Shown: positions 5,448 through 62,977 of the stretch, in pieces | How positions within the stretch are numbered: position 1 is the first letter of the stretch | Layout: every line of letters begins with the position of its first letter | DNA from: a virus | Taxonomy: Duplodnaviria; Heunggongvirae; Uroviricota; Caudoviricetes | Direction: 5' to 3' (one strand) | IMG/VR virus record: IMGVR_UViG_3300045051_000179 | Span: 47,051-111,050 of that record | Length of the DNA: 64,000 nucleotides | The notes under the pieces: model-generated | The model's input: the letters and a program-made list of their open reading frames with translations, nothing else | What the model was told of the DNA's origin: nothing | Databases searched by the model: none | Translations under genes and position numbers: made by a program

Positions 5448-6725
5448 ATGCGCGTCCTCGTAATTGGTGATAGTCCACTAATCAAGACCGGGTTCGGGCG
5501 CGTGAATCACCACGCCGCTGAAGCCTTCCTCCGTCAAGGATGGGAAGTGGCCGCTGTCACTGGTCTGCAATACGAGGAACGAGAGTCTGATCTTGCGATC
5601 CAGCAGTTCGTTCCACTCTCCACCGATGTCAGTGGTTTGTTCAAGGTTATTGAAGTAATTGAGAACAAACTCTTTGAGCCGGATGTCATCTACCTGACGG
5701 CTGATGCGGGCTCAGTTTCGGCCATGGCCTCGGTGATCCCTGCCCGTATCCCAGTTTTTGCGTATGTTCCGATTGAGGGCGAGCCTCTCGCGAGCGCGAA
5801 TTGGAGGGCCATTCTATCCAACATCAACTTCATGACTTGTTCAAAGTACGGTGTCGATGTAGTAGCCCGTGACATGCGCCAGAATATTCCCTACGTCTAC
5901 CACGGAGTGGACTTGAACACATTCACTCCTTTGTCAGAATCAGAGCGTGACGAATATCGTAGGCGCTTGGGGTGGCAAGGAAAGTTCGTTGTTATCTCTG
6001 TCGCGCAGAATGTCCGACGCAAGCAACTGACAAGGCTCATTGAGGCCACATCGATCCTCAAGCATCACTATAAGCAGAAGGACATTCTGACCTATCTGCA
6101 TACTGTCCCCTTCCAGAACTACTGGTTAGAGGGGTGGAACCTACCTGAAGTCTCCGCTGCCTACGATACACATGAGGAAGTTGTCTTCAATCCCCTCATG
6201 AGCGGATTCGGAAAAGCGGTCCCTGAGCGCGGCAATCTTGACGTTCCGGGTATTCGTGAACTTCTGTCGGCTGCGGACCTGTTCGTTCTTCCTTCACAGG
6301 TTGAGGGATTTGGCCTGCCGATAGCGGAAGCCATGGCCTGTGGGACGCCTGTTATGGTTACTAAATACGGTGCCGGATGGGAAGTTGCTCGCCTTGGTGG
6401 AGGCGCACCAATCGAGGTAGCCGATTATGAAACCCATAAGTCCGGTACGCGCTACGCCAACGTCAGCCCGAAGGCATTAGCCGATACCATCCTAGCACTT
6501 AAACGTGATCCGAAGCGCTTAGCCCGGATGCGAGCACAGGGCCTTGAGGCAGTGAAGCAATTCAGTTGGCCCGCATTCGAGGAGACCGTCGTTGGCAAGA
6601 TTGAGGAGACACTCACCCGGTCAGAGACAAGGCGTCGGGAGCAGGAACAGGCTGATTCAGGGCGGGAGGAAGCCGGGTCGTCGTCCGGGTTACTTCGAGA
6701 AACTACGCCTGTTGCTAGCACTTGA
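5448..6725 (+). CDS. GT-B fold glycosyltransferase, family GT4-like.
   Basis: Contains the EGFGLPIAEAMACGTPVMVT motif (E-x7-E region) and an N-terminal Rossmann beta strand, MRVLVIGDS. Confidence 0.8.
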   Translation: MRVLVIGDSPLIKTGFGRVNHHAAEAFLRQGWEVAAVTGLQYEERESDLAIQQFVPLSTDVSGLFKVIEVIENKLFEPDVIYLTADAGSVSAMASVIPARIPVFAYVPIEGEPLASANWRAILSNINFMTCSKYGVDVVARDMRQNIPYVYHGVDLNTFTPLSESERDEYRRRLGWQGKFVVISVAQNVRRKQLTRLIEATSILKHHYKQKDILTYLHTVPFQNYWLEGWNLPEVSAAYDTHEEVVFNPLMSGFGKAVPERGNLDVPGIRELLSAADLFVLPSQVEGFGLPIAEAMACGTPVMVTKYGAGWEVARLGGGAPIEVADYETHKSGTRYANVSPKALADTILALKRDPKRLARMRAQGLEAVKQFSWPAFEETVVGKIEETLTRSETRRREQEQADSGREEAGSSSGLLRETTPVAST

Positions 6726-41319: not shown

Positions 41320-41429
41320 AAGGAATTCCTCCTGATCTTAAACAGAGACTCTGCTTCTAATTACGGGATGAGTCGATCCCAATCAACGGTATTGATTATA
41401 CCACAGATGATGGAAGGTTGTCAAGTCTT

Positions 41430-41648
41430 TTATCGAGATATTAGTTGGATGTTTGATTCTCCCTCGAAGTAGATATCCGCATCGAGAGTCATCGTGACCT
41501 GAGCCCATTCATTTGTACTCACATGGAAACTGATATCAGTCAGTCCCCTAATCTCTTGACCGTCCATCTCCACCTTGGTAAGGATGCCCTTACCCTCCGG
41601 GCACGTAATCTTGATCTTGTGTGGATGCCATTCAGCAGCGGGACTCAT
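41430..41648 (-). CDS. Hypothetical protein.
   Basis: A 72-aa ORF. Confidence 0.35.
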   Translation of the reverse strand: MSPAAEWHPHKIKITCPEGKGILTKVEMDGQEIRGLTDISFHVSTNEWAQVTMTLDADIYFEGESNIQLISR

Positions 41649-42238
41649 TTCTTCCTCCTGCCCGGTGAACGACTGGTTTGATCTTCTTTGGAGTATCCGA
41701 TTTTCGCAGCAGTACCCTGCGCCTTCTTTGCAAGGAATAGCCTTTCATAGGAAAGCAATTCTGCATGACGATCTTCGGTGATGATATGCAGCGGCGGAAC
41801 GCGCTTGCCATTCGGAAACGAGATAGCGTCATTCGTTGGATTGATTCTGATCATTGGGGCCTTACCCCATTCCTCTGCTCGTTGATTAACCTTCAACCAG
41901 TATCTCCCTAGTTCTGCCGGTAAAACTTCGGAAACGATCTGAATGCCATCACGGACAACAGTATTCCATTGTGTCCACAGAAGTGAACCCATCTTCTCGT
42001 TCTTGTTTTCCATAGCATAATGCAGCGACAATGCATCAAACTGCAAGGCGGTTACATGACCGACTCTACCAGTCGATGAAACTATCCCGCCACCCGGCTT
42101 GAATTTCGGGTCGGGACCATCGTGCTCCATGAGCCATTTTGCTCCGCGTCTTTCATCATCCTTGCTGCGGCGCAGCCTGCGCTTGGCATCTGAGTTAATG
42201 AAGATGTTGACGGATTTTGCTTCAATTTCCTCATTCAC
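41645..42238 (-). CDS. Hypothetical protein.
   Basis: A 197-aa ORF with a basic C-terminus. Confidence 0.4.
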   Translation of the reverse strand: MNEEIEAKSVNIFINSDAKRRLRRSKDDERRGAKWLMEHDGPDPKFKPGGGIVSSTGRVGHVTALQFDALSLHYAMENKNEKMGSLLWTQWNTVVRDGIQIVSEVLPAELGRYWLKVNQRAEEWGKAPMIRINPTNDAISFPNGKRVPPLHIITEDRHAELLSYERLFLAKKAQGTAAKIGYSKEDQTSRSPGRRKK

Positions 42239-42566
42239 TCTTGGTATCAGCCTTTGAGTTGTTGTTAGACTTGATGAACGTTACAAAGATCATCAGCATA
42301 ACGACAATACCAAACGCACCTTGAAATGACAGTGATGGCCAACCCATGTCCTTGGCTGCTAGATTTTCGGCCCAAGATAGAATTGCCGCAATACCAGCAG
42401 TAAACGCAATAGTTAAGGCAAGCATCCCAACGCTGCCAATGATGATTGACTTCAAAACAAACTCCTCACTCGTATTGCAGTTCTGTAACTGCCACGAGAT
42501 ACTTCCCCTGTTCACCGAACACCATGTTATTGGTGCAACCACAGGGCACATAGTCAATATTGCCAT
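42231..42566 (-). CDS. Small membrane protein (3 predicted transmembrane helices).
   Basis: Hydrophobic helices include IIIGSVGMLALTIAFTAGIAAIL and FGIVVMLMIFVTFI. Confidence 0.4.
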   Translation of the reverse strand: MAILTMCPVVAPITWCSVNRGSISWQLQNCNTSEEFVLKSIIIGSVGMLALTIAFTAGIAAILSWAENLAAKDMGWPSLSFQGAFGIVVMLMIFVTFIKSNNNSKADTKSE

Positions 42567-42687
42567 CCTGCTGCCTGCGCAGGGTCAGGATCGTACAAGA
42601 TTCTAATGCTGCATGGTCAGGGTCCTTGCAGTTTAGGCACCAGTTCGCAGGCCAGATTGATACGGGTATTACTCTCGGTGCCATCAT
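42466..42687 (-). CDS. Cys-rich small protein.
   Basis: Contains CLNC ... C ... CGC. Confidence 0.3.
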   Translation of the reverse strand: MMAPRVIPVSIWPANWCLNCKDPDHAALESCTILTLRRQQDGNIDYVPCGCTNNMVFGEQGKYLVAVTELQYE

Positions 42688-43028
42688 GATTGTCCACGTC
42701 CCTGCCTCCGTCGAGCAAATGCAGACGAAAAGGGAATCTCGCGCTGATGTACTGTTCGTTCTCTACGGCGATTGATCACGCCAAGTTTACGTAGGGATAC
42801 ATGATCGTGCTTCGCCATGGCCTCTAGGAGGTCTGTGGCTTCATCTTCTAGTGATTGTTGAATACTATGCTGCGTCATCTGCAACACCATTAGCGATCTT
42901 GGTGATCGTCCTTTGCATACGCTTCCTAGCAGCCGCAGTAGTGGTTGATCGCACGGTGTGAGACGTGATGTTCGCCCATTGGGCTGCTTGTTTCGGTGAT
43001 AAACCATCACACCAAGCGAGCGTTTCAA
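42684..43028 (-). CDS. Hypothetical protein.
   Basis: A basic ORF that overlaps its neighbour. Confidence 0.3.
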   Translation of the reverse strand: MKRSLGVMVYHRNKQPNGRTSRLTPCDQPLLRLLGSVCKGRSPRSLMVLQMTQHSIQQSLEDEATDLLEAMAKHDHVSLRKLGVINRRRERTVHQREIPFSSAFARRRQGRGQS

Positions 43029-43308
43029 TACGTTCCTGTAGGGGCAACTTATTGACTGCCTGCTCGGCGTCGAGTAAATCTAGATGATAGTCGTTTCCGA
43101 TGACTGATGAATACGATGTTGACATATCGTCTGCATCAGCCGCTCGGGCTGGTCCTGCCGTGATGATACTCCCACCGGGATTCTCAAGAGCAGCGCGGAT
43201 ACCATGGCGTTCGATTAAGAGTTTCTTGATATATTCGTTGAGCCTGTATAAACCCTGCGAATCGTAACTCTCTCTTACGCCTTCATAGGCGCTAGGATTA
43301 CTGGCCAA
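42865..43308 (-). CDS. Sigma-70 region-4-like helix-turn-helix protein (small sigma or anti-sigma-like regulator).
   Basis: LPLQERIETLAWCDGLSPKQAAQWANITSHTVRS is a region-4 HTH signature. Confidence 0.5.
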   Translation of the reverse strand: MASNPSAYEGVRESYDSQGLYRLNEYIKKLLIERHGIRAALENPGGSIITAGPARAADADDMSTSYSSVIGNDYHLDLLDAEQAVNKLPLQERIETLAWCDGLSPKQAAQWANITSHTVRSTTTAAARKRMQRTITKIANGVADDAA

Positions 43309-44336
43309 TATGAATCTCCACTGACTCGGATTAGACTGGCACGTCCATCCGAGTATTCCACAGTGACGGTTGTTCCATCGACTGTCGAAAGGGCCTTGAT
43401 CAGTAGCGAGGCATCGACAAGAATCTTACCCTTGCCGGTGACATTCGCTTCAATTTCAACTCTCCCTGATTGTGCGCCACTGATGCTAAGGGTTTTCTCC
43501 GTGGCGTTGAGAGTAACCTTGTTGAACTCTGTTCTACCCTTCAGCGATTTGAAGGATTCGATAAGCGTCTTACGGTTGGCTGATATTGAGACATTATGCT
43601 CGAATTTGGGTAATGATGGCAGTTTGCCATAGCCCGGTCGAAGCACGGAAACGACTCGATATCTGCCTGATCCTATTTGTACTTGTGGAGATTGCGTATC
43701 ATTTCGAATTGGGAAGTAGAATCCACCAGCATCCTCAAGGCCCTTAAGGGCCGAGAATAGTGTTGACGGGAAGTGAGCATCAAAGACTTCCGAAGCGGGC
43801 AATGGCCCTACCTCGACGCCCATATGATTGTCGTTGGCTCGCAGCCAGAATGAATCCTTGACGACTGATCCATACACCTGATCATGCGGGCTAAAATCGC
43901 CTACTGCAAGATCAAGATATTTCGATGCGGCAGGGAGAAAGCCTGCATCAAACTTCACTACGGGTCCGTCACCGAATGGCTTGGGCCGGAGCAACATAGG
44001 AGTCTCATGGCCAATGTTGTCCATCGTCACGCTGCTACCAAAGGCTGTCTTTAATTGTGCCCCATCTTTGTCGATTGTGAAGAAGACCTCGCCCTTCCCC
44101 TTGAGGGCCTTCAGGGTCGTCAGGAATAATCGAGATGACACGATAGCGGTACCATCTTGGTCAGTAGGTCCAACGGTGGCCATGATCGTCTTCTCGTGGT
44201 CCCCAGCAATGAGTTTCAGGACGCCATTGTGCGCCTGAATGATGACCCTATCTGTTGGCCTATCCGCCTTCTCTCGGACAGACGCAAACCTACCTATCGT
44301 CTCTCCGATTTCCCGTAGTTCTATGAAGGTTGTCAT
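43275..44336 (-). CDS. dnaN: DNA polymerase III beta sliding clamp homologue.
   Basis: A 353-aa protein with three-domain length. LKLIAGDHEKTIMATV ... SSRLFLTTLKAL ... VFF resembles the clamp N-terminal pattern. The C-terminus reads ILAPMKA. Confidence 0.6.
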   Translation of the reverse strand: MTTFIELREIGETIGRFASVREKADRPTDRVIIQAHNGVLKLIAGDHEKTIMATVGPTDQDGTAIVSSRLFLTTLKALKGKGEVFFTIDKDGAQLKTAFGSSVTMDNIGHETPMLLRPKPFGDGPVVKFDAGFLPAASKYLDLAVGDFSPHDQVYGSVVKDSFWLRANDNHMGVEVGPLPASEVFDAHFPSTLFSALKGLEDAGGFYFPIRNDTQSPQVQIGSGRYRVVSVLRPGYGKLPSLPKFEHNVSISANRKTLIESFKSLKGRTEFNKVTLNATEKTLSISGAQSGRVEIEANVTGKGKILVDASLLIKALSTVDGTTVTVEYSDGRASLIRVSGDSYWPVILAPMKA

Positions 44337-44815
44337 TCGCCCTTCTTCAGTGCCTCATCTGCGGACTTACGATAGACTTCAAACCACTCACCAGTGTCAC
44401 CTGTTCCTGTCTGTGGTCGGTACTGCTTGATGATGCGAGCAGGGTCTTCATATCCCTGTGACTTCATTATAGCATACATCATGGCAGGGGATCGATTGAT
44501 TCCGTGGCCACAATGCACCAGTAATTTCCCTTTGCTTGGGACTGTCTTCGAGAAAGCAATGCCTCGGGCGAACCAAGAGGCTGGCTTTGGCTTACCATCG
44601 TCAAGCGTCTCAGGGAGACCAGATAGATCAAGATGCACGAATGCATCCTTGATTTCCTGTGGCTCAGGCTTATCCGGCCAGTTGACGTTGAGGATATGGG
44701 TAATACCCTCTTTCTTGAGGGCAGGGATATCGGTTATGGCTAGCGTGCCGCCAATATATAGATCGCCAGTGATCCTTGAAATGCTCAACTTGATACCTTC
44801 AACGAATCTATCCAT
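44333..44815 (-). CDS. Dual-specificity / protein tyrosine phosphatase.
   Basis: LLVHCGHGINRSPAMMYAIM contains the HCxxGxxRS P-loop, and ITHILNV matches the family. Confidence 0.8.
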   Translation of the reverse strand: MDRFVEGIKLSISRITGDLYIGGTLAITDIPALKKEGITHILNVNWPDKPEPQEIKDAFVHLDLSGLPETLDDGKPKPASWFARGIAFSKTVPSKGKLLVHCGHGINRSPAMMYAIMKSQGYEDPARIIKQYRPQTGTGDTGEWFEVYRKSADEALKKGE

Positions 44816-45237
44816 TCTTCATAGGTCTGCTTAACAATACAGCGGACAGTTCTGTTCTTCATGCCGTATGAGTATACCACATCCATATGGTCCTCGTCAA
44901 CATGCTCGAAAGCGCGACACGAGACAGCCGTCTCGACAACCCATTTATGCTCATGGGGCTTAGAATGGTTCCATCCGTGAGCAAATTGATAGTCTACGCC
45001 TAAGTTATGGAAGTATGGATCAGTATCGCAGTATGTCCAACTCTTTACCTGCAATCCAACTGGAAGAATTACTGCATCGTCAGGCGCGTTATGGCATAAG
45101 GTCAGGAATGCCTCAGCCCTGCCGGGATGCGTTGCATCTTCTGAGTCCACGGGTGTCTTCCATCTATAGGCAAACGTACCAGCACGGTAGTCTTTGTAGT
45201 CAAGTCTGAAGTCGAACGGCTTGGATTCTTCCGGCAC
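44785..45237 (-). CDS. Hypothetical protein.
   Basis: A 150-aa ORF. Confidence 0.4.
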   Translation of the reverse strand: MPEESKPFDFRLDYKDYRAGTFAYRWKTPVDSEDATHPGRAEAFLTLCHNAPDDAVILPVGLQVKSWTYCDTDPYFHNLGVDYQFAHGWNHSKPHEHKWVVETAVSCRAFEHVDEDHMDVVYSYGMKNRTVRCIVKQTYEEWIDSLKVSS

Positions 45238-45538
45238 TTAAGTCTGCTATCCTTTCGAATGCATCGGCATAGAGGTCGATACTGCGGGTTGCACTACAGT
45301 TACAATCAATGATACGTACCCTGACTTGTCTATCGTGATATCGAACGATGATATATCGTCCACGCAGATAAGATAGGTCGGGCGAAATGGCCGCATAAAG
45401 GCCGTGTGAATATCCTCTAGCGCACGCCGAAAGCGGGCCGCGAGACGAGTCATGATTGCAGTACCATGTCGCACTAACTGAGATGCCCGTACCAGATATG
45501 GTTGCCCTTGGTGACGGGACAGATGTTGGCTGCGGCAT
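45200..45538 (-). CDS. RlpA-like double-psi beta-barrel (DPBB) domain protein (lytic-transglycosylase- or expansin-like).
   Basis: SATWYCNHDS ... SHGLYAAISPD ... YIIVRYHDRQVRVRIIDCNCSATRSIDLYADAFERIA resembles the RlpA/3D pattern. The start is uncertain. Confidence 0.5.
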   Translation of the reverse strand: MPQPTSVPSPRATISGTGISVSATWYCNHDSSRGPLSACARGYSHGLYAAISPDLSYLRGRYIIVRYHDRQVRVRIIDCNCSATRSIDLYADAFERIADLSAGRIQAVRLQT

Positions 45539-45686
45539 ACTGTCCCTGATGGCAAGCAACGCAAGTGTCTGATCGGGACGAATCGCCACCGGCAAGAATG
45601 CCACGTCGGGGACCGGCGAAGATGAGGGGGAATGCGCGGTTGAGACGCTCGACCACATCAGCAGGAAGACGGATGCGCATAGTAGA

Positions 45687-46094
45687 CTACCTCGCCCTCG
45701 GTAGGTTAATGTTCGCGCTCGGCGCAGAATCAAACTTACCAAGGAACTTGATAGCATTGATATTCTGTTCGACAGCATCGAGAAGATGCGTGATCTTCTT
45801 AGCCTTCGTACGTGCATTGATTTCCTCCTGCTGTTCATCTTGCGTTTCCAGCATGGCGTAATTGTTTGCAGCGGCGTCTGACAAAGGCTTGTCGGATCGC
45901 ATCTCTTTAGCCCGCTTAAAGGCTTCTGCTTGTGCATACTTTCGCTTCATCTCTGCCTCCTCAGCAAGAGATTGTGCATCCGCAGCAAGGTTGCCGAGGA
46001 TAGCGAAAGATGTCACTAGATCGTCTAGATGTTGTGCCGTTGGATTGCTCTTAAGCAACTCCATTGTGTGCGTTAGGAATTCATCCCTGTTCAA
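45687..46094 (-). CDS. Hypothetical coiled-coil protein.
   Basis: A 135-aa ORF. Confidence 0.4.
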   Translation of the reverse strand: MNRDEFLTHTMELLKSNPTAQHLDDLVTSFAILGNLAADAQSLAEEAEMKRKYAQAEAFKRAKEMRSDKPLSDAAANNYAMLETQDEQQEEINARTKAKKITHLLDAVEQNINAIKFLGKFDSAPSANINLPRAR

Positions 46095-46140
46095 TCTGTA
46101 CCTCCAAGATACACATTATACCATACCCGTATGGTGGCTG

Positions 46141-46338
46141 TCAAATCTCATCGTACTGTAGGGAAAAGAATAAAGCCTCCCCAATGAGTGGCCTATTCGT
46201 AAAGGCCAATCGCTGAGGAGACTTATCTTCAACTCGCTCCCCATATAGGAGCCATATGTAGGTTGGGTAATCCTTAGGCATGCCGAAACGATCTAGGTTC
46301 AACTTAGGAGGCGGCATGACGGGAGTTCGAGCGCCCAT
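46141..46338 (-). CDS. Hypothetical protein.
   Basis: A 65-aa ORF. Confidence 0.3.
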   Translation of the reverse strand: MGARTPVMPPPKLNLDRFGMPKDYPTYIWLLYGERVEDKSPQRLAFTNRPLIGEALFFSLQYDEI

Positions 46339-46673
46339 CAGAAGCCGAGAATAGCCTTTCGCTTCGCCAATCGCGCAGCCTTATCGGGCTGTCGTAGGCC
46401 CTTGATGCGAATGTACCTACCCTGTCGAGAGGCTGAGGCAATACGGTCCCTGAGTTGTCGCTTCTTCCGGTAGATACCCACCCTCGGGCGATCCGAGACA
46501 TCGCTATCCACTCGGTCTTTCTCAGGGAAGATAGGACCAATCCTGATCTTCTTATCCTTCTTTAGCATCTCTTGAATCCATGGCAAGCGCACGGCTAGCA
46601 ACCTAGCCTTGCTTGCCTTTTCTTCCTTAGTTAGTTTCGCCACAGCGTACCTCTGCTCTCTTGCCATTCTCAC
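46338..46673 (-). CDS. Basic hypothetical protein.
   Basis: A 111-aa ORF rich in Lys and Arg. Confidence 0.4.
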   Translation of the reverse strand: MRMAREQRYAVAKLTKEEKASKARLLAVRLPWIQEMLKKDKKIRIGPIFPEKDRVDSDVSDRPRVGIYRKKRQLRDRIASASRQGRYIRIKGLRQPDKAARLAKRKAILGF

Positions 46674-46787
46674 TCACAGAGAAATGTTTCTTAGTTGCTC
46701 CGCACTTAGGACATGGGGTATTTACGAGACTTCTCCATGCCTTGTCGGCATTGCCCGGATCGGCAGGCTTACCGTATGGGCTCTTAG

Positions 46788-48068
46788 TCAATCTAATTCC
46801 TCCCCCGACAGGTCTGATTCTTCGACCATTCGACCGGTTCGAAGATCAATGCGCATTGGGACATTCCTCTGCGCCTCTCCGTGACGGTTCTTCACTAACT
46901 CGCAGTCCAAGATATTCGGGCTGATATATCGGTCGCGCTTGAGGATGATGCCAATGTCGGCTGCATCTCTGATTGCGCCGCTGCCTTTGAACGTGTAGTA
47001 TCCGGACTGTTTGTTGGCAGGATCATTTTGAGCCTTCGCCTGTTCGTTGGAGAGTTGAGAAAGGGCGATGACCGTGCAGTCCAGTTCCTTTGCAAGATTC
47101 TGAAGTTCAAGGATCGTTGTGCGTGCATCTTTAACCTCATCTCCAGTGTCGTAAACATTCTGTACGAAGTCTACAATCATCAAGTCGAGACCCAAGGTCT
47201 CTTTCTGGTGAATCGCCTTACTGCGAATATCTGAGAGCCTGTAGGCGGTATCATAGATACGCAGCGAAGTTGTCGGTATCCATGCCTCTGCCCGTTGGAC
47301 TGCCGCTACTTCATCATGCCCAATGAAGGCTCGATTCTTGATTGTCCGCTGAGGAACGCCACTCTTGATAGACGCAAGCCTGATCAAGTAGTCTTCTTGT
47401 GTCATTTCCAGAGAGAAGACCTCGACCCACTTGCGAGTTTTCAGCGCGTGATAGATAATGTTCACGGCAAACAACGTCTTGCCTGTGCTAGAGAACCCAC
47501 CTACGACCCAGAGATGTCCGGGCTGTAGTCCACCTGTCAATTGCTGCAAGGTGGAACTAAATGGCAGTTTGATCGCATTGATTTCCTTGACATTCTGAAT
47601 ACGATAGAGAATATCGCTCGGATCAGGACTACGATCAGGGACAGGTAGAGTCATCCTTACGTTTCGCAAGAGTGATTCTGCCTCTGCCATCAGGCCGTCG
47701 CTGTCTGCTCGCTTCTCCTCTGCCAGCGTAATGAATGTCGCGCCTACCTGCTGTAATTTTCTTGCAGTGGAGAGGCCCTTAACGATCTTGGCACTCTCAA
47801 TTGCTTGCGGCACGGTGACGGGAATCTTGTTCAGTTTCTCAACGTACTCCATCGCGTCACCCTGTCCATCAAGGGCTTCGAGTAGCAATGGGAACTCAGG
47901 GGTCTTTCGGTCTCCGCTCACGCTGAGAATGGCCTTCATGATCTTCCGTGGTGTCGGTCCTTGGAAGTCATCGCTCCGAAGTTCTTCGCTATTGATAGCC
48001 CAGAATGAATCGGGGAATCGAATGATCCCCGCTAGGACTGTGTTTTCCGCCTCTATGTTCGCAAGCAT
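46788..48068 (-). CDS. dnaB: Replicative DNA helicase (DnaB family).
   Basis: GGFSSTGKT is a Walker A motif, LDLMIVDFVQ a Walker B region, and VIALSQLSNEQ the H4 motif. Confidence 0.85.
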   Translation of the reverse strand: MLANIEAENTVLAGIIRFPDSFWAINSEELRSDDFQGPTPRKIMKAILSVSGDRKTPEFPLLLEALDGQGDAMEYVEKLNKIPVTVPQAIESAKIVKGLSTARKLQQVGATFITLAEEKRADSDGLMAEAESLLRNVRMTLPVPDRSPDPSDILYRIQNVKEINAIKLPFSSTLQQLTGGLQPGHLWVVGGFSSTGKTLFAVNIIYHALKTRKWVEVFSLEMTQEDYLIRLASIKSGVPQRTIKNRAFIGHDEVAAVQRAEAWIPTTSLRIYDTAYRLSDIRSKAIHQKETLGLDLMIVDFVQNVYDTGDEVKDARTTILELQNLAKELDCTVIALSQLSNEQAKAQNDPANKQSGYYTFKGSGAIRDAADIGIILKRDRYISPNILDCELVKNRHGEAQRNVPMRIDLRTGRMVEESDLSGEELD

Positions 48069-49612: not shown

Positions 49613-49785
49613 TACTTGCCTCCGTTCGTATAACCGGGAAATTCCTTGGCAATTGGGCAGACTACTGTGTAGTCTACGTAATCATCCTCGGGGTCGTTAT
49701 CATCCAGCGACTGCATCACGTGCTTCCCATTCAGTACGGCAATGCCTTCCTCGCAATAGATACAGTAGATCGTCTTAGTCTTCAT
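49612..49785 (-). CDS. Small Cys-containing protein of 57 aa, not in the ORF track.
   Basis: AAGGAG lies 4 nt upstream. Its start shares an ATGA overlap with the upstream gene. The peptide reads MKTKTIYCIYCEEG... Confidence 0.3.
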   Translation of the reverse strand: MKTKTIYCIYCEEGIAVLNGKHVMQSLDDNDPEDDYVDYTVVCPIAKEFPGYTNGGK

Positions 49786-50084
49786 TTGACTCCTTCTAGA
49801 AATTCAACAATGACATCTCCATGACAGGCGAGTGGCTTACAGAAACAGAGTAGCGTCTTACCTCGCAGGGGTTCTAGGAAGTCGGGATCGAGTTCTAGTT
49901 TTCCTCGCAGATACCATCGATACCAAGCGAGCACTTCATCCCGGCCCATAGGCAGACCATGTTCATCTAGGCTGCCGACAGCAATTGGATTCCCCCACTT
50001 GCCATCGAAGCCCCGCCCAGCCCTGCCAATGTAGACAGAGTTGGGCGGGATGCCATCATGAATATTAGCGACCGTTGTGGCCAA
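49782..50084 (-). CDS. DUF4326-like protein.
   Basis: Contains GNPF-type and LLCFCKPLACHGDV motifs. Confidence 0.5.
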   Translation of the reverse strand: MATTVANIHDGIPPNSVYIGRAGRGFDGKWGNPIAVGSLDEHGLPMGRDEVLAWYRWYLRGKLELDPDFLEPLRGKTLLCFCKPLACHGDVIVEFLEGVK

Positions 50085-59265: not shown

Positions 59266-59757
59266 CTACATTATACCATGCGAGAGACGTTGAGTCAAGG
59301 TAGATGGTTCATTCGCCCCGCCTAGCAGGACATTAGGTTCTGGTACATCCCATACACCTTCGTGATAGATGTAAACAGGGATGCCCTTCTTCTCTGCGCA
59401 CTTCACCGCATCTGATGTGCCCGGTGTCCTTGGGCCAGCCGCGAATATTGCCACAAGGGCATCGGACTCATCGATCATCCTTTGATTGCGTTGATGGCCA
59501 GCACCTCGTCCTGCAATATTCCAGAATGCCTCGAAGGTCTTGACGGTCTCATCAGGAAGGTCAATGAAGTCTGTTTGCGCTGCCCAAACGAATTTCACAT
59601 TGGCATCAACTCCTGACGGAGCATCGCCAACATTGATGGTATGACCATTCCGTATAAGGCTCTTGACGACTCGATCAATGAACCAGATATCTGTCCAGCC
59701 ATTCATCCTGCCACGAACAGGATCAGGGCCTCGACTACCACTAATGGCGACTCTCAT
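59266..59757 (-). CDS. SLOG-superfamily protein (DUF2493-like).
   Basis: MRVAISGSRG ... VGDAPSGVDA ... AGRGAGHQRNQRM ... GTSDAVKCAEKKGIPV matches the DUF2493 pattern. Confidence 0.65.
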   Translation of the reverse strand: MRVAISGSRGPDPVRGRMNGWTDIWFIDRVVKSLIRNGHTINVGDAPSGVDANVKFVWAAQTDFIDLPDETVKTFEAFWNIAGRGAGHQRNQRMIDESDALVAIFAAGPRTPGTSDAVKCAEKKGIPVYIYHEGVWDVPEPNVLLGGANEPSTLTQRLSHGIM

Positions 59758-60275
59758 TCCCTAGACCTTAACCACTTCTCAAATGTTTCGTTGCATAGAA
59801 CTGCCGGTGACCGCTTCTCACGGAGCATGGCAATTGCCTCATCAGCACTTTGTCCCATGTACATCAAGGCACGCGCCACGACAAGAGAACTTCGATTGAG
59901 CCCTGCCTGACAGTGGACGAGAACCTTCTGGCCCTTCGCAAGGAGGCCGACAACAAACAGCGCAGCATCTTCCACGGACCCACCATCAACTTCGGTCGAG
60001 TCATACATGGTAACCTGAACGGTGTCACCCTTGGTAGGATATTTCTCCCAAGGATAAAGTGACACGATGGTATCGAAGCGATCACCAAGATCGAGGTTAT
60101 CCACGTACCCGCCGTGCCAAAGATTACCTGTGACATGGGTAATAATGGGCATGCTGAATGGCGTATTGCCCATATGCGCAATGCCATCTATCCAGTGAGT
60201 GAATGGGTCCGCACCGTCAGGCGCAACCCAACCATAGGTCTTCTCAACTGTATTGGCCCCGGTATCTCCGCTCAT
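59754..60275 (-). CDS. Dual-specificity / protein tyrosine phosphatase (second copy).
   Basis: VLVHCQAGLNRSSLVVARALM contains the HCxxGxxRS P-loop. Confidence 0.8.
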   Translation of the reverse strand: MSGDTGANTVEKTYGWVAPDGADPFTHWIDGIAHMGNTPFSMPIITHVTGNLWHGGYVDNLDLGDRFDTIVSLYPWEKYPTKGDTVQVTMYDSTEVDGGSVEDAALFVVGLLAKGQKVLVHCQAGLNRSSLVVARALMYMGQSADEAIAMLREKRSPAVLCNETFEKWLRSRE

Positions 60276-60763
60276 GCCCTCTCCATCACTGTGAACCTGT
60301 CATCAAGGATAGGATCAAGCACAGGCTTGACATCCTCCCATCGCAGGCCCCCGTTTCCGCATCCGGGCCTGCACATGATGACTCGATAATCTGGCTTACC
60401 GTCAATCTCAGTTCGCATTTCCCATGCCGACCGTTCAATCAACTCAATCTCGGCTTTCGCCTGCCATCCCATCTCGCCATTAGGTCCATACTGCGGCTTA
60501 ACAGGGAACGTATAGAGCGAGAAGTTATATGGGCTATCTCGATTGAAGTTAGGCTCGATGTCAAACCTGAAAACGTGATTGCCCTTGGTGCGAAGGGCCG
60601 TACCAAGATTACCGGCTAGCCAAGGATAGCGGTTTCTTGCCTCTAGAGCAATGCCCCTACCCATGACTGCCTCTCCGTTGGATTTGTAGAATCCATTAGT
60701 CGTGATGACCACGCCATCGAACTCATCGATGTAGTCCCAGATATTTCCGAAGCGCTCGATCAT
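60272..60763 (-). CDS. Macro domain protein (Macro_2/phage-type; ADP-ribose processing).
   Basis: GNIWDYIDEFDGVVITTNG ... AVMGRGIALEA ... IMCRPGCGNGGLRWEDV matches the Macro_2 pattern. Confidence 0.65.
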   Translation of the reverse strand: MIERFGNIWDYIDEFDGVVITTNGFYKSNGEAVMGRGIALEARNRYPWLAGNLGTALRTKGNHVFRFDIEPNFNRDSPYNFSLYTFPVKPQYGPNGEMGWQAKAEIELIERSAWEMRTEIDGKPDYRVIMCRPGCGNGGLRWEDVKPVLDPILDDRFTVMERA

Positions 60764-61179
60764 GCTCTCTTTTCCTCATCAATGATGTATCTCATCCATG
60801 CACGGTCGGGCTCTATGTCTGGATACCTTGCAACAGCAAGGTCATATTCGGGCTTTGGGGCTACTACCTCCAAGCCTGCCCCATCATAGAAGACAACCTC
60901 GGCCTCAGGCGCGTCTTCTAGTTTCTGTGGCCACTCTGCGTCCCATTCCCAACCGTAATCAGTCCATGACTTGAAGGAAACTGGATGCCTGCTCTCATAT
61001 TCGTATTCAAATCCAAGCAGCGCAGCGATTTCTTCTAGTGCATCTTCAAGTCCTGTGCTGAGACCAAGAGAACCAGCGAACGGATCATTAGGACCGAAGT
61101 CCCACGCAAGTTCTCCGTTCACATAGAACGCACCCAGACCACTATCAGGGTCACGCACTACGACAAGTTTGTTAGTCAT
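60760..61179 (-). CDS. Hypothetical acidic protein; first gene of the Macro-DSP-SLOG operon.
   Basis: A 139-aa ORF whose stop codon overlaps the Macro gene start. Confidence 0.4.
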   Translation of the reverse strand: MTNKLVVVRDPDSGLGAFYVNGELAWDFGPNDPFAGSLGLSTGLEDALEEIAALLGFEYEYESRHPVSFKSWTDYGWEWDAEWPQKLEDAPEAEVVFYDGAGLEVVAPKPEYDLAVARYPDIEPDRAWMRYIIDEEKRA

Positions 61180-61320: not shown

Positions 61321-61590
61321 CTAGCCACTGTTAACGTAGCAATGAATGATTATTTCACCAGTAGCACCGAAGGCAGCAGTACCGACATATCGACCAGCGG
61401 GAACATCCTCACCAGTGAAGGCAAGGGTAATGACTCGCTGAATAGGCTCAGAAGACTGATCAGCCTCGGCCCAAATCGTAGGCGTACCGCTCTGGTTGGC
61501 GAACTTGATAGGACGCCACGTGGTAGGCAGTTCTACAACCTGCGTATAGGTCTGATCCAACGGGTACTTTAGGATGCGACGGTCAGCCAT
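61321..61590 (-). CDS. Hypothetical protein.
   Basis: An 89-aa ORF overlapping the 3' end of the integrase gene. Confidence 0.4.
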   Translation of the reverse strand: MADRRILKYPLDQTYTQVVELPTTWRPIKFANQSGTPTIWAEADQSSEPIQRVITLAFTGEDVPAGRYVGTAAFGATGEIIIHCYVNSG

Positions 61591-62477
61591 TCCGGTTCTT
61601 CCTCCTGCGTGTTTGCGTCTACTTTTGCGTCTTTTACGAGACGAATACCATTGCCTAGATTGCGAGGGTCAAGCCCACTAGCCGCGACCAAATCACCGAT
61701 GTCCATAGTCACGTACTGCTGGGTCGTACTAACGCTGGCATGACCAAGCAATTTCTGGACTGCGAAGACATTAGCCCCTGCCCTGATAAGTCGAGTTGCA
61801 TAGTGATGACGCAGGGAGTGAGGATGAATATTCACCTTCGCCTTGCGTGCCGCCATGTCAACGATCCCGTTTACGGTATCAAACGACAGACGGCCACCAT
61901 CAGGATTGTGGACAAGATAGTCGGACTCAGCGCCATTGTCCTTGTCAAATGCCTGCAAGGCATCAATCGTCTCCGGCAGGACAGGAACTATGCGCTGCTT
62001 GTTGCCCTTACCGGTTACTACCATGTAGTAGCCGTACTCTTTGGTCCACTTCATTGCGTCGGCGCGAAGATCAGAGACTTCGGATGCACGAAGGCCATTG
62101 AGCAGGAGCGAGACAACGGCTGCTTCTCTGGAAGTTTTGGTCGCAGCGATCAGGGCCTCGACATCCTCATCGGACGGTACCTCAGGGACATTTCCTGACG
62201 GGCGCTTTGGTGCCTTGACTGCCTCAAAGGGTGAATACTCGATCATCTTTCGGGTCGCCAGCCACCTATAAAACGTGCGGACAGTATTGAATCTCCGTGC
62301 CGCACCATTAGCCTTATAGGTCTTGGTCAACCATGCCTTGTATTCAGCAGCACCCTCGACCGTGAGAGGAAGGCCCTGCTCAAACCAAAGGCGCAAGTCA
62401 TTCCCATACGCACGCACAGTTTCAGGACTGTTCTGCGTATTCAAGAATGCTTGCGCCTCAGTAGCAAATGTGGTCAT
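61569..62477 (-). CDS. int: Tyrosine recombinase/integrase (XerC/D-like).
   Basis: ARG ... HPHSLRHHYATRLIRAGANVFAVQKLLGHASVSTTQQY contains the R-HxxR-Y catalytic signature. The start was chosen at MTTFATEAQAF, which gives the family's typical length. The ORF track extends it upstream to 62615. Confidence 0.85.
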   Translation of the reverse strand: MTTFATEAQAFLNTQNSPETVRAYGNDLRLWFEQGLPLTVEGAAEYKAWLTKTYKANGAARRFNTVRTFYRWLATRKMIEYSPFEAVKAPKRPSGNVPEVPSDEDVEALIAATKTSREAAVVSLLLNGLRASEVSDLRADAMKWTKEYGYYMVVTGKGNKQRIVPVLPETIDALQAFDKDNGAESDYLVHNPDGGRLSFDTVNGIVDMAARKAKVNIHPHSLRHHYATRLIRAGANVFAVQKLLGHASVSTTQQYVTMDIGDLVAASGLDPRNLGNGIRLVKDAKVDANTQEEEPEWLTVAS

Positions 62478-62649
62478 CGAGTACCCTTTGCTTGACCTCA
62501 TAGATAAGTTCTCTGGCTGCCTCTGGATGGCGGCGCACAAACCAATAGGCTCGTGCTGTAGACCTTCGGTCCTCGTACCACTTGGGTGCGAGATGCCTAA
62601 GGTTTCTCCACTCAAAGAGAAGATCGTTGAGGATGTCTTGCTCGTTCAT
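62458..62649 (-). CDS. Hypothetical small protein upstream of the integrase gene.
   Basis: A 63-aa ORF rich in Arg and Trp. Confidence 0.35.
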   Translation of the reverse strand: MNEQDILNDLLFEWRNLRHLAPKWYEDRRSTARAYWFVRRHPEAARELIYEVKQRVLDDHICY

Positions 62650-62683
62650 TGTCCCCCAAGTATACCAGTATCAGAAAGGATTG

Positions 62684-62977
62684 TCAAGCCAATCCCCCAC
62701 CGTGTGTTTCTTCCTGATGATAGACCATAGCCCTACCTTCGCCCATCTCAACTGTGAAACCACAGTCATCGATGTCGCAGATCATCCAGCCATCATCGAA
62801 GTGCCATGTAGTCGGAGTAGCCGTTGCCTTGCCTTCTGGCTTCGGCCCAAGATCATAGGCTGCTACGGCTGTCCAGCCATAAGGGATACTTTCGGCAGGA
62901 TCAGTGACAACATGATAGGCAAGGATGACATCTCCTACCTTAAAGGGCTCGCCTATATCAACGGCAGTGATTGTCAC
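62684..62977 (-). CDS. Hypothetical protein.
   Basis: A 97-aa ORF. Confidence 0.4.
   Translation of the reverse strand: MTITAVDIGEPFKVGDVILAYHVVTDPAESIPYGWTAVAAYDLGPKPEGKATATPTTWHFDDGWMICDIDDCGFTVEMGEGRAMVYHQEETHGGGLA

What the first reader, a model, noticed from the sequence alone, without database searches (positions are those of the whole stretch)
44333..44815. The phage encodes two separate dual-specificity / tyrosine phosphatases (44333-44815 and 59754-60275).
Both proteins carry an unambiguous (V/L)HCxxGxxRS catalytic loop, but they are otherwise divergent, at about 160 and 173 aa. One sits between the beta clamp and the DPBB protein in the replication block. The other sits in the Macro/SLOG operon. 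Cysteine phosphatases are uncommon in phages, and two in one genome suggests deliberate manipulation of host phospho-signalling or of phosphorylated nucleotide or RNA ends.
Basis: partly seen in the sequence, partly recalled or inferred. Interest (0 to 1): 0.6.

Follow-up and report, generated by a model that had tools for sequence, protein, structure and literature searches.

The report
Two unrelated cysteine phosphatases in phage
A roughly 111 kb phage carries two intact but only distantly related cysteine (dual-specificity type) phosphatase genes; one belongs to a family already annotated in actinobacteriophages and the other to a rare phage-only branch, and their gene neighbours suggest nucleotide- or sugar-linked substrates more than host protein signalling, though no substrate is known for either.

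Summary
Window 44333-44815(-) encodes DSP1 (160 aa, VHCGHGINRS). Window 59754-60275(-) encodes DSP2 (173 aa, VHCQAGLNRS). Both pass Pfam's DSPc cut-off and give confident VH1-like DSP models. Cys, Arg and the upstream general-acid Asp are invariant in their homologues.

They share 28% identity and belong to different subfamilies, so they are not recent paralogues.

DSP2 is ordinary. It belongs to PHROG 10650, is annotated in 42 deposited phages, has at least 1585 protein clusters, and occurs in many Actinomycetota genomes. Here it is joined by ATGA overlaps to a DarG-type macrodomain upstream and a YAcAr-type SLOG downstream. Across 98 lineages only the DSP2-SLOG pair recurs, in 4-5. DSP2 loci are rich in tRNA arrays (16/62 lineages against 0/40 controls).

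DSP1 is rare, with one 50%-identity cluster and no match in 185,579 reference genomes. In four high-GC lineages it lies beside a GT4 glycosyltransferase in the virion module. Here it is ATGA-coupled to the sliding clamp, and a GT4 gene sits next to the capsid gene.

The substrates are unknown. Context slightly favours non-protein phosphoesters over host phosphoproteins. Both are real members of known kinds, of moderate interest.

The parts
44333..44815 (-). DSP1: 160-aa VH1-like dual-specificity phosphatase of a rare, phage-only subfamily
44489..44518 (-). DSP1 catalytic P-loop VHCGHGINRS (Cys102 nucleophile, Arg108)
   Evidence: Translation. H101, C102, H104, G105, N107 and R108 are invariant in all 7 family members.
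44597..44602 (-). DSP1 Asp72-Asp73, the candidate general acid about 30 residues before the Cys
   Evidence: Invariant in the family alignment. It aligns in the region of the acid loop of VHR. Coordinates.
59754..60275 (-). DSP2: 173-aa dual-specificity phosphatase of the actinophage 'PTPc tyrosine phosphatase' family
   Evidence: ORF. Pfam DSPc 3.1e-14. phrog_10650 at 2.5e-43 over the full length. 42 annotated phage homologues. AF2 pLDDT 94.6. Foldseek top hits are Tk-PTP, vaccinia VH1 and MPXV H1.
59889..59918 (-). DSP2 catalytic P-loop VHCQAGLNRS (Cys122, Arg128)
   Evidence: Translation. H121, C122, Q123, A124, G125, N127, R128 and S129 are invariant in 38 diverse homologues.
60000..60002 (-). 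DSP2 Asp92, the candidate general acid
   Evidence: Invariant in 38 homologues. It aligns with the acidic loop of PRL-3.
43275..44336 (-). DNA polymerase sliding clamp, whose start overlaps the DSP1 stop (ATGA)
   Evidence: Pfam DNA_pol3_beta 8.1e-8 and phrog_947 at 2.2e-14. Junction sequence.
44785..45237 (-). 150-aa ORF of unknown function just upstream of DSP1, overlapping it by 31 nt
   Evidence: ORF. No family hit. 62% identical homologue in the same relative position in L001.
60272..60763 (-). DarG-type macrodomain protein, ATGA-coupled to the DSP2 start
   Evidence: NCBIfam antitoxin_DarG 1.6e-10, macro region only. PADLOC DarG 1.8e-10. PDB 5m3i at 4.9e-4 and 5m31. phrog_335.
59266..59757 (-). 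SLOG-superfamily protein (YAcAr/YspA-like), ATGA-coupled to the DSP2 stop
   Evidence: BLASTP 7e-7 to the Estes 'DprA-like' protein, which matches PF10686. 8 of 10 aligned family members match PF10686, best 6.4e-18, and the window protein keeps all invariant residues.
60760..61179 (-). 139-aa ORF of unknown function, first gene of the ATGA-coupled string orf139-Macro-DSP2-SLOG
   Evidence: ORF. Junction. No family hit. Weak homologue next to MazG in L002.
61569..62615 (-). Tyrosine recombinase/integrase upstream in the same orientation. The closest DSP2 relative (L010) also has an integrase 320 bp upstream of its DSP2.
   Evidence: Pfam Phage_integrase 1.3e-29. L010 context.
62659..62687 (-). 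Sigma-70-like promoter match (11/12, extended -10) upstream of the integrase-to-SLOG gene string
   Evidence: This is a consensus match only, and the total count is not above shuffles.
46115..46144 (-). Perfect sigma-70-like promoter match (12/12 with TG) upstream of the gene string that leads to DSP1 and the clamp
   Evidence: This is a consensus match only.
5448..6725 (+). GT4 glycosyltransferase between the major capsid protein and the head-tail adaptor. It is a homologue of the GT4 found beside DSP1-family genes in other phages.
   Evidence: Pfam Glycos_transf_1 5.6e-20 and GT4-conflict 1e-8; phrog_2170 at 1.5e-31. tblastn 7e-25 to the L090 GT4.
49782..50084 (-). DUF4326 homologue. This domain is proposed in the literature to process terminal ribose phosphates of ADP-ribose derivatives.
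   Evidence: tblastn 44% identity, 2e-16, to the PF14216 protein of L002. The proposal is in PMC9503650.

Best explanation
Shown: the phage encodes two catalytically intact VH1-like cysteine phosphatases acquired independently from two different subfamilies.

Inferred from conserved residues: each should hydrolyse a phosphomonoester by the standard PTP/DSP mechanism. The P-loop Cys (C102 or C122) attacks the phosphate held by the loop amides and Arg (R108 or R128). An Asp about 30 residues upstream (D72/D73 or D92) protonates the leaving group. Water then releases phosphate from the thiophosphoryl enzyme.

DSP2 is a member of a widespread accessory-gene family of actinophages and prophages. 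In this phage it is translated as part of the overlapping string orf139, DarG-like macrodomain, DSP2, SLOG. The same early arm also holds cREC and DUF4326 genes. The most likely role (about 0.4) is removal of a terminal phosphate from an ADP-ribose-derived, nucleotide or RNA-end substrate, within an anti-defence or RNA-damage-response gene island. HAD, calcineurin-like or DUF4326 enzymes are proposed to do this step in other phages.

DSP1 belongs to a rare phage-only branch. In its high-GC relatives it is part of a conserved cassette with a GT4 glycosyltransferase in the virion-structure module. Its most likely ancestral role (about 0.35) is a dephosphorylation step linked to virion glycosylation, acting on a sugar phosphate, phospho-glycan or phosphorylated acceptor. 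In this phage the gene has moved and is translationally coupled to the sliding clamp, so its role here is less certain.

The two enzymes are therefore probably not a coordinated pair.
For: Identity and integrity:
- Pfam DSPc is above threshold for both.
- Catalytic Cys, Arg and Asp are invariant in 7 and 38 homologues.
- The models are confident and give strong DSP fold matches.

Independent origin:
- 28% identity.
- DSP1's profile matches human VHR better (1.4e-14) than DSP1 matches DSP2.
- DSP1 hits phrog_10650 only at 8e-4, against 2.5e-43 for DSP2.

DSP2 context:
- ATGA overlaps with the Macro and SLOG genes.
- The macrodomain is DarG-type. SLOG is confirmed at family level.
- A cREC gene lies 3.6 kb upstream and a DUF4326 gene is at 49782-50084.
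- PMC9503650 groups Macro, SLOG and cREC as ADPr-derivative processors. It proposes DUF4326 as a ribose-phosphate processor. It also reports cysteine (rhodanese-phosphatase superfamily) phosphatases coupled to ARG domains in cellular systems.
- SLOG lies within about 1 kb downstream on the same strand in 4-5 independent lineages, including an identical 4-nt overlap in L010.
- DSP2 loci are rich in tRNA arrays: 16/62 lineages against 0/40 controls, p=1.7e-4. RNA-repair genes (RtcB, RlaP, PNKP, CCA enzyme) occur in 14/62 against 3/40, p=0.058.

DSP1 context:
- GT4 and a 333-aa partner are adjacent in L088/L254/L255, L256/L253, L090 and L092. GT4 identity falls to 35% and the gene order varies. 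The cassette lies next to an FkbM methyltransferase and head-tail genes.
- The window has a homologous GT4 beside its capsid gene.
- Cluster O mycobacteriophages have methyltransferase and glycosyltransferase genes in the structural operon (PMC4351075).
Against: - No substrate is shown for any member of either family. No held paper reports biochemistry on a phage DSP of this kind.
- By sequence and fold, the closest solved relatives of both are protein phosphatases (VHR, MKPs, PRL, VH1). Fold ranking does not separate substrate classes.
- The DSP2 neighbourhood is mostly not conserved. No neighbour family is shared by more than about 10 of 98 lineages. Macro is shared by one other lineage. SLOG within 10 kb is no more frequent than in controls (10/62 against 9/40, p=0.44).
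- tRNA density is flat with distance from DSP2. The control loci come from smaller genomes, so genome size is a confound.
- The window has no tRNA, RtcB or RNA ligase.
- DSP1 is 38 kb from the GT4 gene here. In the three roughly 110-kb relatives it sits in replication-type neighbourhoods.
- The 333-aa cassette partner is unidentified.
Confidence: 0.5

Rival explanations
1. One or both enzymes are true protein phosphatases. They would dephosphorylate host (or phage) pTyr, pSer or pThr proteins to subvert Ser/Thr/Tyr-kinase signalling or kinase-based abortive infection.
For: The best sequence, profile and fold matches are protein DUSPs: VHR/DUSP3, MKPs, DUSP19/22, PRL-3, and poxvirus VH1/H1, a viral protein phosphatase. 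The general-acid Asp is conserved, as in protein DSPs. DSP2-family hosts are mainly Actinomycetota, which are rich in eukaryote-like Ser/Thr kinases (general knowledge). The largely unconserved neighbourhood of DSP2 fits a stand-alone host-takeover gene.
Against: No conserved kinase, FHA or other phospho-signalling neighbour family emerged in 98 DSP2 lineages or 7 DSP1 lineages, though no kinase or FHA profile was used as a seed. The few recurrent neighbours are nucleotide, RNA or glycan enzymes. The DSP fold includes many non-protein phosphatases (PTPMT1 is DSP1's top structural match), so similarity to DUSPs does not fix the substrate.
Confidence: 0.3
2. DSP2 (and perhaps DSP1) is an RNA-end phosphatase in tRNA repair. 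It would trim 5'-, 3'- or 2'-phosphates so that RtcB, ATP-dependent ligases or the CCA-adding enzyme can restore tRNAs cut by host anticodon nucleases. This would resemble the RNA 5'-phosphatases of the same superfamily (BVP, PIR1).
For: In phage Estes the DSP2 gene lies two genes after RtcB and beside a 20-plus tRNA array. In NiceHouse it lies two genes before a tRNA nucleotidyltransferase. In Wildcat and Bongo it lies 1.5-2 kb from tRNA/tmRNA arrays. There are 419 tRNAs in 1.33 Mb around DSP2 genes against 7 in 1.36 Mb of control loci. RlaP, PNKP, the CCA enzyme or RtcB lie within 10 kb in 14/62 viral lineages. A DSP1 relative (L002) lies within 9 kb of RtcB and an RNA ligase. The DSP1 P-loop HCGHGINRS resembles HCTHGxNRT of the RNA triphosphatases (my recollection of those motifs).
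Confidence: 0.15
3. The two genes are recent paralogues from a duplication within this phage, or one is an inactive pseudo-phosphatase.
For: Both are DSPc domains of similar size in one genome.
Against: They share only 28% identity and fall in different PHROG families and subfamilies. Each has much closer homologues in other phages: 78% for DSP1 and 64% for DSP2. All catalytic residues are intact and invariant.
Confidence: 0.03

Closest known systems
Actinobacteriophage 'PTPc tyrosine phosphatase / dual specificity phosphatase' family (PHROG 10650; e.g. Mycobacterium phages Bongo gp83, Wildcat gp96, Estes gp133; Rhodococcus phage NiceHouse gp258)
   Same: DSP2 matches over its full length (phrog_10650 at 2.5e-43; 40-49% identity to these proteins). 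It shares the invariant HCQAGLNRS loop, Asp92, the N-terminal GNTPF...ISH extension and the C-terminal RSPAVLCN motif.
   Different: The genome is unrelated at the DNA level to any deposited phage, has 51% GC and no tRNAs in 64 kb. The macrodomain neighbour is found in only one other lineage. I found no report of biochemical testing of the family. DSP1 is not a member (8e-4, partial match).
Eukaryotic atypical and VH1-like DUSPs (VHR/DUSP3, DUSP14, DUSP19, DUSP22, MKPs) and poxvirus VH1/H1
   Same: Same fold and catalytic apparatus. The DSP1 profile matches VHR at 1.4e-14. DSP2's fold matches VH1 and MPXV H1. Like VH1, these are virus-encoded single-domain DSPs.
   Different: Identity is 18-26%. 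DSP1 has its own invariant motifs (NVxWPDxPEP, LDDGKPKP, RPQTGTG...WF), and DSP2 has an extra N-terminal beta-rich extension. The protein substrates of those enzymes (MAP kinases, STAT1) do not exist in bacteria.
Non-protein DSP-fold phosphatases: PTPMT1 (lipid), laforin/SEX4/LSF2 (glucan), BVP/PIR1/Mce1 (RNA 5' ends)
Phage ADP-ribose-derivative processing neighbourhoods (Macro, SLOG, NADAR, cREC, DUF4326) described by Iyer et al. 2022 (PMC9503650)
   Same: The window has a macrodomain, a SLOG, a cREC and a DUF4326 gene in its early arm. Macro and SLOG directly flank DSP2. The paper notes phosphatases, including cysteine phosphatases of the rhodanese-phosphatase superfamily, coupled to ADPr-processing domains in cellular systems.
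   Different: In the passages I read, the paper does not list a DSP-type phosphatase in the phage Macro/SLOG neighbourhoods. The terminal-phosphate step is assigned there to DUF4326, HAD or calcineurin-like enzymes. The macrodomain here is DarG-like, which in DarTG acts on ADP-ribosylated DNA and not on a soluble metabolite.
Virion-glycosylation gene sets of mycobacteriophages (e.g. cluster O: O-methyltransferase plus glycosyltransferases in the structural operon; PMC4351075)
   Same: DSP1 relatives lie with a GT4 glycosyltransferase and an FkbM-type methyltransferase among head and tail genes. The window has a GT4 gene between the capsid and adaptor genes.
   Different: No phosphatase is reported in the cluster O cassette. 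In this window the DSP1 gene is not in the cassette but in the replication block.

Membership tests
Cysteine-dependent PTP/DSP superfamily (Pfam DSPc PF00782) | Signature P-loop HCX5R(S/T) with the nucleophilic Cys and the phosphate-binding Arg | tested here: met
   VHCGHGINRS and VHCQAGLNRS. Cys and Arg are invariant in 7 and 38 homologues.
Cysteine-dependent PTP/DSP superfamily (Pfam DSPc PF00782) | Score above the curated Pfam gathering threshold | tested here: met
   40.5 and 53.4 bits against a cut-off of 33.5.
Cysteine-dependent PTP/DSP superfamily (Pfam DSPc PF00782) | General-acid Asp on a loop about 30 residues N-terminal to the Cys | tested here: met
   D72/D73 (DSP1) and D92 (DSP2) are invariant. 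They align with the acid loops of VHR and PRL-3.
Cysteine-dependent PTP/DSP superfamily (Pfam DSPc PF00782) | Compact alpha/beta DSP fold | tested here: met
Cysteine-dependent PTP/DSP superfamily (Pfam DSPc PF00782) | Phosphomonoesterase activity abolished by Cys-to-Ser mutation | not testable with these tools
   This requires purified protein.
Actinophage PTPc / dual specificity phosphatase family (PHROG 10650) | Full-length match to the family profile (DSP2) | tested here: met
   2.5e-43, residues 23-172 against profile positions 13-167 of 169. 39 of 42 phage hits cover at least 80% of the query.
Actinophage PTPc / dual specificity phosphatase family (PHROG 10650) | Full-length match to the family profile (DSP1) | tested here: not met
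   8e-4, and only residues 93-134 around the P-loop. tblastn finds a single phage record at 29.5% identity.
RNA 5'-tri/diphosphatase branch (baculovirus BVP, PIR1/DUSP11, metazoan capping enzyme) | P-loop of the type HCTHGxNRT (motif recalled from memory) | tested here: inconclusive
   DSP1's HCGHGINRS shares H at +2, G at +3, N at +5 and R at +6. DSP2's HCQAGLNRS does not share the His. The reference motif was not verified with a tool.
RNA 5'-tri/diphosphatase branch (baculovirus BVP, PIR1/DUSP11, metazoan capping enzyme) | Closer overall similarity to this branch than to protein DUSPs | tested here: not met
Glucan phosphatases (laforin, SEX4, LSF2) | DSP domain joined to a carbohydrate-binding module or equivalent glucan-binding surface (general knowledge) | tested here: not met
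PTP-SAK (Pfam PF22784, DSP-PTPase domain of the 'Swiss Army Knife' protein) | Score above the Pfam gathering threshold | tested here: not met
   DSP1 scores 17.1 bits against a cut-off of 27. Some relatives (P0004-P0006) carry precomputed PF22784 hits alongside DSPc, so the families overlap.
   The DarG-like macrodomain lies within 10 kb of DSP2 in 1 other lineage of 98. SLOG lies within about 1 kb in 4-5 lineages and within 10 kb in 10, which is not above the control rate.
DSP1-GT4 structural-module cassette | DSP1-family gene adjacent to a GT4 glycosyltransferase in diverged lineages | tested here: met
   Seen in L088/L254/L255, L256/L253, L090 and L092, with GT4 identity of 35-61% between groups and different gene orders.
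DSP1-GT4 structural-module cassette | The same adjacency in this window | tested here: not met
   GT4 is at 5448-6725(+) and DSP1 at 44333-44815(-), 38 kb apart. L001 and L002 also lack GT4 within 10 kb of the DSP1 gene.

The most novel reading that the evidence does not exclude
Neither enzyme acts on proteins. DSP1 would define a new phage-only branch of DSP-fold phosphatases that works with a GT4 glycosyltransferase in building or trimming phosphorylated glycans on virions. DSP2 would be the missing terminal-phosphate phosphatase of phage Macro/SLOG/cREC systems. In that role it would detoxify or erase phosphorylated ADP-ribose-type immune signals or toxins, or clean phosphorylated RNA ends. 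Under this reading a large, unstudied family found in actinophages and prophages would be a counter-defence enzyme.
Probability: 0.25. Interest if true: 0.7.

Novelty: new member of a known kind. Interest (0 to 1): 0.4.

Why it matters
Virus-encoded DSPs are known from poxviruses, baculoviruses and archaeal viruses. I found no biochemical study of the phage families. DSP2's family is large: at least 1585 protein clusters, dozens of cultivable actinophages, and many genomes of Actinomycetota and Nitrosomonadaceae. Assigning it a substrate would annotate a common accessory gene in genetically tractable model phages.

If the substrate is an ADP-ribose-derived or RNA-end phosphate, it would add a new enzyme class to phage counter-defence. 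If DSP1 works with GT4 glycosyltransferases, it would add a phosphatase step to phage virion glycosylation, which affects immune recognition of therapeutic mycobacteriophages.

If both turn out to be ordinary protein phosphatases, the finding remains a modest annotation.

Tried and rejected
1. DNA-level identification of the phage: megablast of two 6-8 kb stretches found nothing in 50,697 phage records. A 519-aa structural-arm ORF also found nothing by tblastn, Pfam or PHROGs.
2. RNA-triphosphatase hypothesis for DSP1, prompted by its HCxHGxNR loop: rejected as a membership claim, because BVP, PIR1 and Mce1 are more distant than ordinary DUSPs.
3. Macro-DSP2-SLOG as a conserved operon: rejected by the 98-lineage census.
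4. My first neighbour census used a greedy ORF picker that chose antisense shadow ORFs in high-GC loci. I redid it with all ORFs and with iterative HMMs.
5. Control anchors: the window's DnaB has no relatives in IMG/VR. An 11-sequence endonuclease VII alignment was too divergent to search with. A 3-sequence alignment worked, but it mostly returned roughly 50-kb genomes, so genome size remains a confound.
6. Literature: the 2016 RNA-repair survey that defined RlaP and the 'Swiss Army Knife' protein, and the 2023 virion-glycosylation paper, are not held. Two searches were unproductive.
7. Host or prophage search for DSP1 in 185,579 genomes found nothing.
8. The 333-aa partner of the DSP1-GT4 cassette could not be identified by Pfam, PHROGs or a PDB profile search.
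9. PADLOC: neither DSP matches a known defence-system component.
10. Co-occurrence of DSP1 and DSP2 in relatives could not be tested, because the fetched loci span only +-10 kb and the two genes lie 15 kb apart here.
Full report
OBSERVATION

Window 44333-44815(-) encodes 160 aa (DSP1) and 59754-60275(-) encodes 173 aa (DSP2). Their catalytic loops read VHCGHGINRS (44489-44518) and VHCQAGLNRS (59889-59918). Both score above Pfam's curated threshold for the dual-specificity phosphatase catalytic domain: 40.5 and 53.4 bits against a cut-off of 33.5. They match solved DUSPs by sequence. The two share 28% identity over 146 residues.

The window is clearly a tailed phage. It has a + strand structural arm with a major capsid protein at 3970-4854 and a head-tail adaptor at 6852-7406. 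Its - strand arm carries a holin, primase, DnaB, sliding clamp, endonuclease VII, a PD-(D/E)XK nuclease and a tyrosine recombinase. Both proteins occur, 100% identical, on a metagenomic contig of 111,050 bp. No deposited phage shares DNA similarity with the window.

ARE THEY INTACT ENZYMES?

In the seven known DSP1-family proteins, H101, C102, H104, G105, N107 and R108 are invariant. So are D72 and D73, which lie 30 residues upstream, where DSPs carry the general acid. In 38 diverse DSP2 homologues, H121-C122-Q-A-G-x-N127-R128-S129 and D92 are invariant.

TWO DIFFERENT FAMILIES

DSP2 is a full-length member of PHROG 10650, named 'dual specificity phosphatase' (2.5e-43). DSP1 touches that profile only around the P-loop (8e-4).

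DSP2 has homologues in 42 of 50,697 deposited phage genomes: Mycobacterium clusters including Bongo, Rey, Estes and Wildcat, plus Gordonia, Rhodococcus NiceHouse and two Halogranum viruses. They are annotated 'PTPc tyrosine phosphatase' or 'dual specificity phosphatase'. The family has at least 1585 clusters in the large protein collection, 78 loci in IMG/VR and 80 loci in reference genomes. The genome loci are mostly Actinomycetota but include Nitrosomonadaceae, Dormibacterota and others.

DSP1 is rare. Seven proteins were found by the word-indexed search. A full HMM scan of 1.84 billion representatives found a single 50%-identity cluster below 1e-30, and the next hit was at 2e-24, where generic DSPs begin. 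There is one weak hit among deposited phages, one locus in IMG/VR, four in JGI and other metagenomes, and none in 185,579 reference genomes. No deposited phage record matches both proteins.

The pair therefore reflects two independent acquisitions and not a duplication.

CONTEXT OF DSP2

In the window, four genes are joined by ATGA stop-start overlaps: orf139 (60760-61179), a macrodomain protein (60272-60763), DSP2, and a SLOG protein (59266-59757). They lie downstream of a tyrosine recombinase and a promoter-like site.

The macrodomain is specifically DarG-like: NCBIfam antitoxin_DarG 1.6e-10, PADLOC DarG 1.8e-10, and PDB 5m3i and 5m31.

The SLOG label needed more work. The window protein has no significant Pfam hit of its own. 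It does align, with all invariant residues, to a family in which 8 of 10 members match Pfam YAcAr (SLOG), best 6.4e-18.

The same arm also holds a cREC-domain gene at the window's edge and a DUF4326 gene (49782-50084). A survey of viral NAD+/ADP-ribose systems groups Macro, SLOG and cREC as processors of ADP-ribose derivatives. It proposes DUF4326 as a processor of terminal ribose phosphates. It also notes cysteine phosphatases of the rhodanese-phosphatase superfamily coupled to ADPr-processing ARG domains in cellular systems (PMC9503650). That makes a terminal-phosphate role for DSP2 on an ADP-ribose-derived or related substrate plausible.

IS THE DSP2 CONTEXT CONSERVED?

I clustered all ORFs around 157 DSP2 genes (78 viral and 79 genomic loci, 98 lineages at 80% DSP2 identity) and searched them with iterative profiles. 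No neighbour is widely shared.

- The DarG-like macrodomain occurs in one other lineage.
- SLOG lies within 10 kb in 10 lineages. It lies within about 1 kb downstream on the same strand in 4-5 of them. In the closest relative, L010, the overlap is the identical 4 nt.
- RlaP occurs in 8 lineages, PNKP in 8, CCA-adding or poly(A)-polymerase-family enzymes in 4 and RtcB in 3.
- In annotated phages the DSP2 gene lies two genes after RtcB and beside a tRNA array (Estes). It lies two genes before a tRNA nucleotidyltransferase (NiceHouse) and 1.5-2 kb from tRNA/tmRNA arrays (Wildcat, Bongo). In Gordonia phage PhinkBoden it is near none of these.
- aragorn found 419 tRNA/tmRNA genes in the 1.33 Mb of viral DSP2 loci. 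Sixteen of 62 lineages have at least three.

As a control I used 40 lineages of IMG/VR loci anchored on endonuclease VII and lacking DSP2.

| Measure | DSP2 viral loci | Control loci | Fisher p |
|---|---|---|---|
| tRNAs / sequence searched | 419 / 1.33 Mb | 7 / 1.36 Mb | - |
| Lineages with at least 3 tRNAs | 16/62 | 0/40 | 1.7e-4 |
| Lineages with an RNA-repair gene | 14/62 | 3/40 | 0.058 |
| Lineages with a SLOG gene | 10/62 | 9/40 | 0.44 |

Three caveats apply. tRNA density does not rise towards DSP2. The controls are mostly roughly 50-kb genomes, while DSP2 phages are larger. The window itself has no tRNA, RtcB or RNA ligase.

I read this as follows. DSP2 is a mobile accessory gene that tends to live in the early-gene islands of large phages, alongside tRNA, RNA-repair and nucleotide-processing genes. 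It has a genuine but minority pairing with SLOG.

CONTEXT OF DSP1

Here DSP1's stop overlaps the start of the sliding clamp (ATGA). A conserved 150-aa ORF of unknown function precedes it. A perfect sigma-70-like promoter match lies 1.3 kb upstream.

In the 78%-identical relative (L001) the gene is again in a replication-type block. In a 50% relative (L002) it lies between a PD-(D/E)XK nuclease and an amidase and DUF4326, with RtcB and an RNA ligase 5-9 kb away on the other strand.

All high-GC relatives tell a different story. In L088/L254/L255, L256/L253, L090 and L092 the DSP1-family gene lies with a GT4 glycosyltransferase and an unidentified 333-aa protein. Gene orders differ, and GT4 identity between groups is only 35-61%. 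The cassette sits inside the virion module, next to an FkbM-type methyltransferase, a head-tail adaptor, a minor tail protein and the tape measure.

The window encodes a homologous GT4 (5448-6725), directly between its capsid and adaptor genes. Methyltransferase and glycosyltransferase sets in the structural operon are known from cluster O mycobacteriophages, where they are thought to modify the capsid. No phosphatase is reported there (PMC4351075).

This is the strongest conserved-neighbourhood signal found for either enzyme. It suggests the DSP1 branch arose as part of a virion-glycosylation cassette. The role of the relocated copy in this phage is less clear.

WHAT FOLD AND SEQUENCE SAY ABOUT SUBSTRATE

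They say very little. DSP1's profile is closest to VHR/DUSP3 and the MKPs. Its top structural match is the lipid phosphatase PTPMT1. The glucan phosphatases score in the middle, and the RNA 5'-phosphatases (BVP, PIR1, capping enzyme) score lower than ordinary DUSPs. The HCxHGxNR loop of DSP1 resembles my recollection of the RNA-triphosphatase loop, but membership of that branch is not supported. Neither DSP matches a known defence-system component. I found no biochemical study of these phage families.

VERDICT

DSP2's family is already recognised, the 'operon' is not conserved, and nothing specifically indicates host phospho-signalling.

My estimates are:
- About 0.9 that both are active DSP-fold phosphatases of separate origin.
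- About 0.4 that DSP2 acts on an ADP-ribose-derived, nucleotide or RNA-end phosphate.
- About 0.35 that the DSP1 branch is tied to glycosylation.
- About 0.3 that one or both are protein phosphatases.

This is a new member of a known kind, with a possibly new branch in DSP1. It is of moderate interest because the family is large, experimentally tractable and unstudied.

Noticed in passing
window 60272-60763 (-): The macrodomain next to DSP2 is specifically DarG-like (NCBIfam and PADLOC DarG about 1e-10; PDB DarG macrodomains 5m3i and 5m31). A phage-borne DarG-type DNA ADP-ribosyl glycohydrolase with no DarT beside it would be a candidate counter-defence against host DarTG.
   Followed up: partly
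window 5448-6725 (+), between the capsid gene 3970-4854 and the head-tail adaptor 6852-7406: A GT4 glycosyltransferase (Glycos_transf_1, GT4-conflict, phrog_2170) sits inside the head-gene block. This suggests that the virion proteins are glycosylated.
   Followed up: partly
L088, L090, L092, L253-L256 (loci of DSP1-family relatives): A conserved cassette of DSP1-like phosphatase, GT4 glycosyltransferase and an unidentified 333-aa protein, sometimes with an FkbM methyltransferase and a 239-aa protein, lies in the structural module of high-GC (67-71%) phage contigs. I did not find it described in the papers held.
   Followed up: partly
L010-L087 (IMG/VR loci with DSP2-family genes): DSP2-family genes lie in regions very rich in tRNAs: 419 tRNA/tmRNA genes in 1.33 Mb against 7 in 1.36 Mb of endonuclease-VII-anchored control loci. 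RlaP, PNKP, CCA-enzyme and RtcB genes are often nearby. Genome size is an uncontrolled confound.
   Followed up: partly
window 31718-32203 (-), 56309-57388 (-), 40144-40575 (-): A cluster of nucleotide-pool enzymes: a PF18909 dATP/dGTP diphosphohydrolase-type domain protein (5.8e-31), a GuaB/GuaC-like IMP dehydrogenase or GMP reductase (6e-89) and a MazG homologue. PF18909 proteins also recur 1-2 kb upstream of DSP2 genes in 7 other lineages. No PurZ-like gene was seen in the window.
   Followed up: no
window 50087-51019 (-) and 49782-50084 (-): An SPFH/Band 7 protein (2.3e-37) is followed immediately by a DUF4326 homologue. DUF4326 also lies near the DSP1-family gene in L001 and L002.
   Followed up: partly
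window 33229-34038 (-) and 34696-35484 (-): A GFO/IDH/MocA-type oxidoreductase and a hexapeptide-repeat acyltransferase, both typical of nucleotide-sugar modification, lie next to the lysis genes (glucosaminidase-like 35474-36271, holin 36540-37022). They may supply a modified sugar for the GT4 enzyme.
   Followed up: no
window 63896-64000 (-), running off the window end: The C-terminal part of a small gene carries a precomputed cREC_REC (PF20274) hit on the source contig. This domain is predicted in the literature to open cyclic phosphates on RNA ends or ADP-ribose.
   Followed up: no
The DPBB_1 match (8e-6, below threshold) covers only its last 90 residues or so. Its 5' part overlaps a separate 135-aa gene (phrog_38137) that follows a perfect sigma-70-like promoter match at 46144-46115.
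   Followed up: partly
window 2389-3948 (+): A 519-aa ORF in the head-gene region has no match in 50,697 phage genomes, Pfam or PHROGs. Together with the absence of any DNA match for the two stretches tested (40000-48000 and 57000-63000), this marks a very divergent phage lineage. Its relatives L001 (51% GC) and L002 (64% GC) are also contigs of about 110 kb.
   Followed up: no
L117, L118, L128, L134, L141, L143, L156, L159 (genome loci); Halogranum virus hits: The DSP2 family is not confined to Actinomycetota. It occurs in several Nitrosomonadaceae genomes (twice in one chromosome), in Dormibacterota, Chloroflexi and Vulcanimicrobiota MAGs, and in two haloarchaeal viruses. This points to wide horizontal spread.
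   Followed up: no
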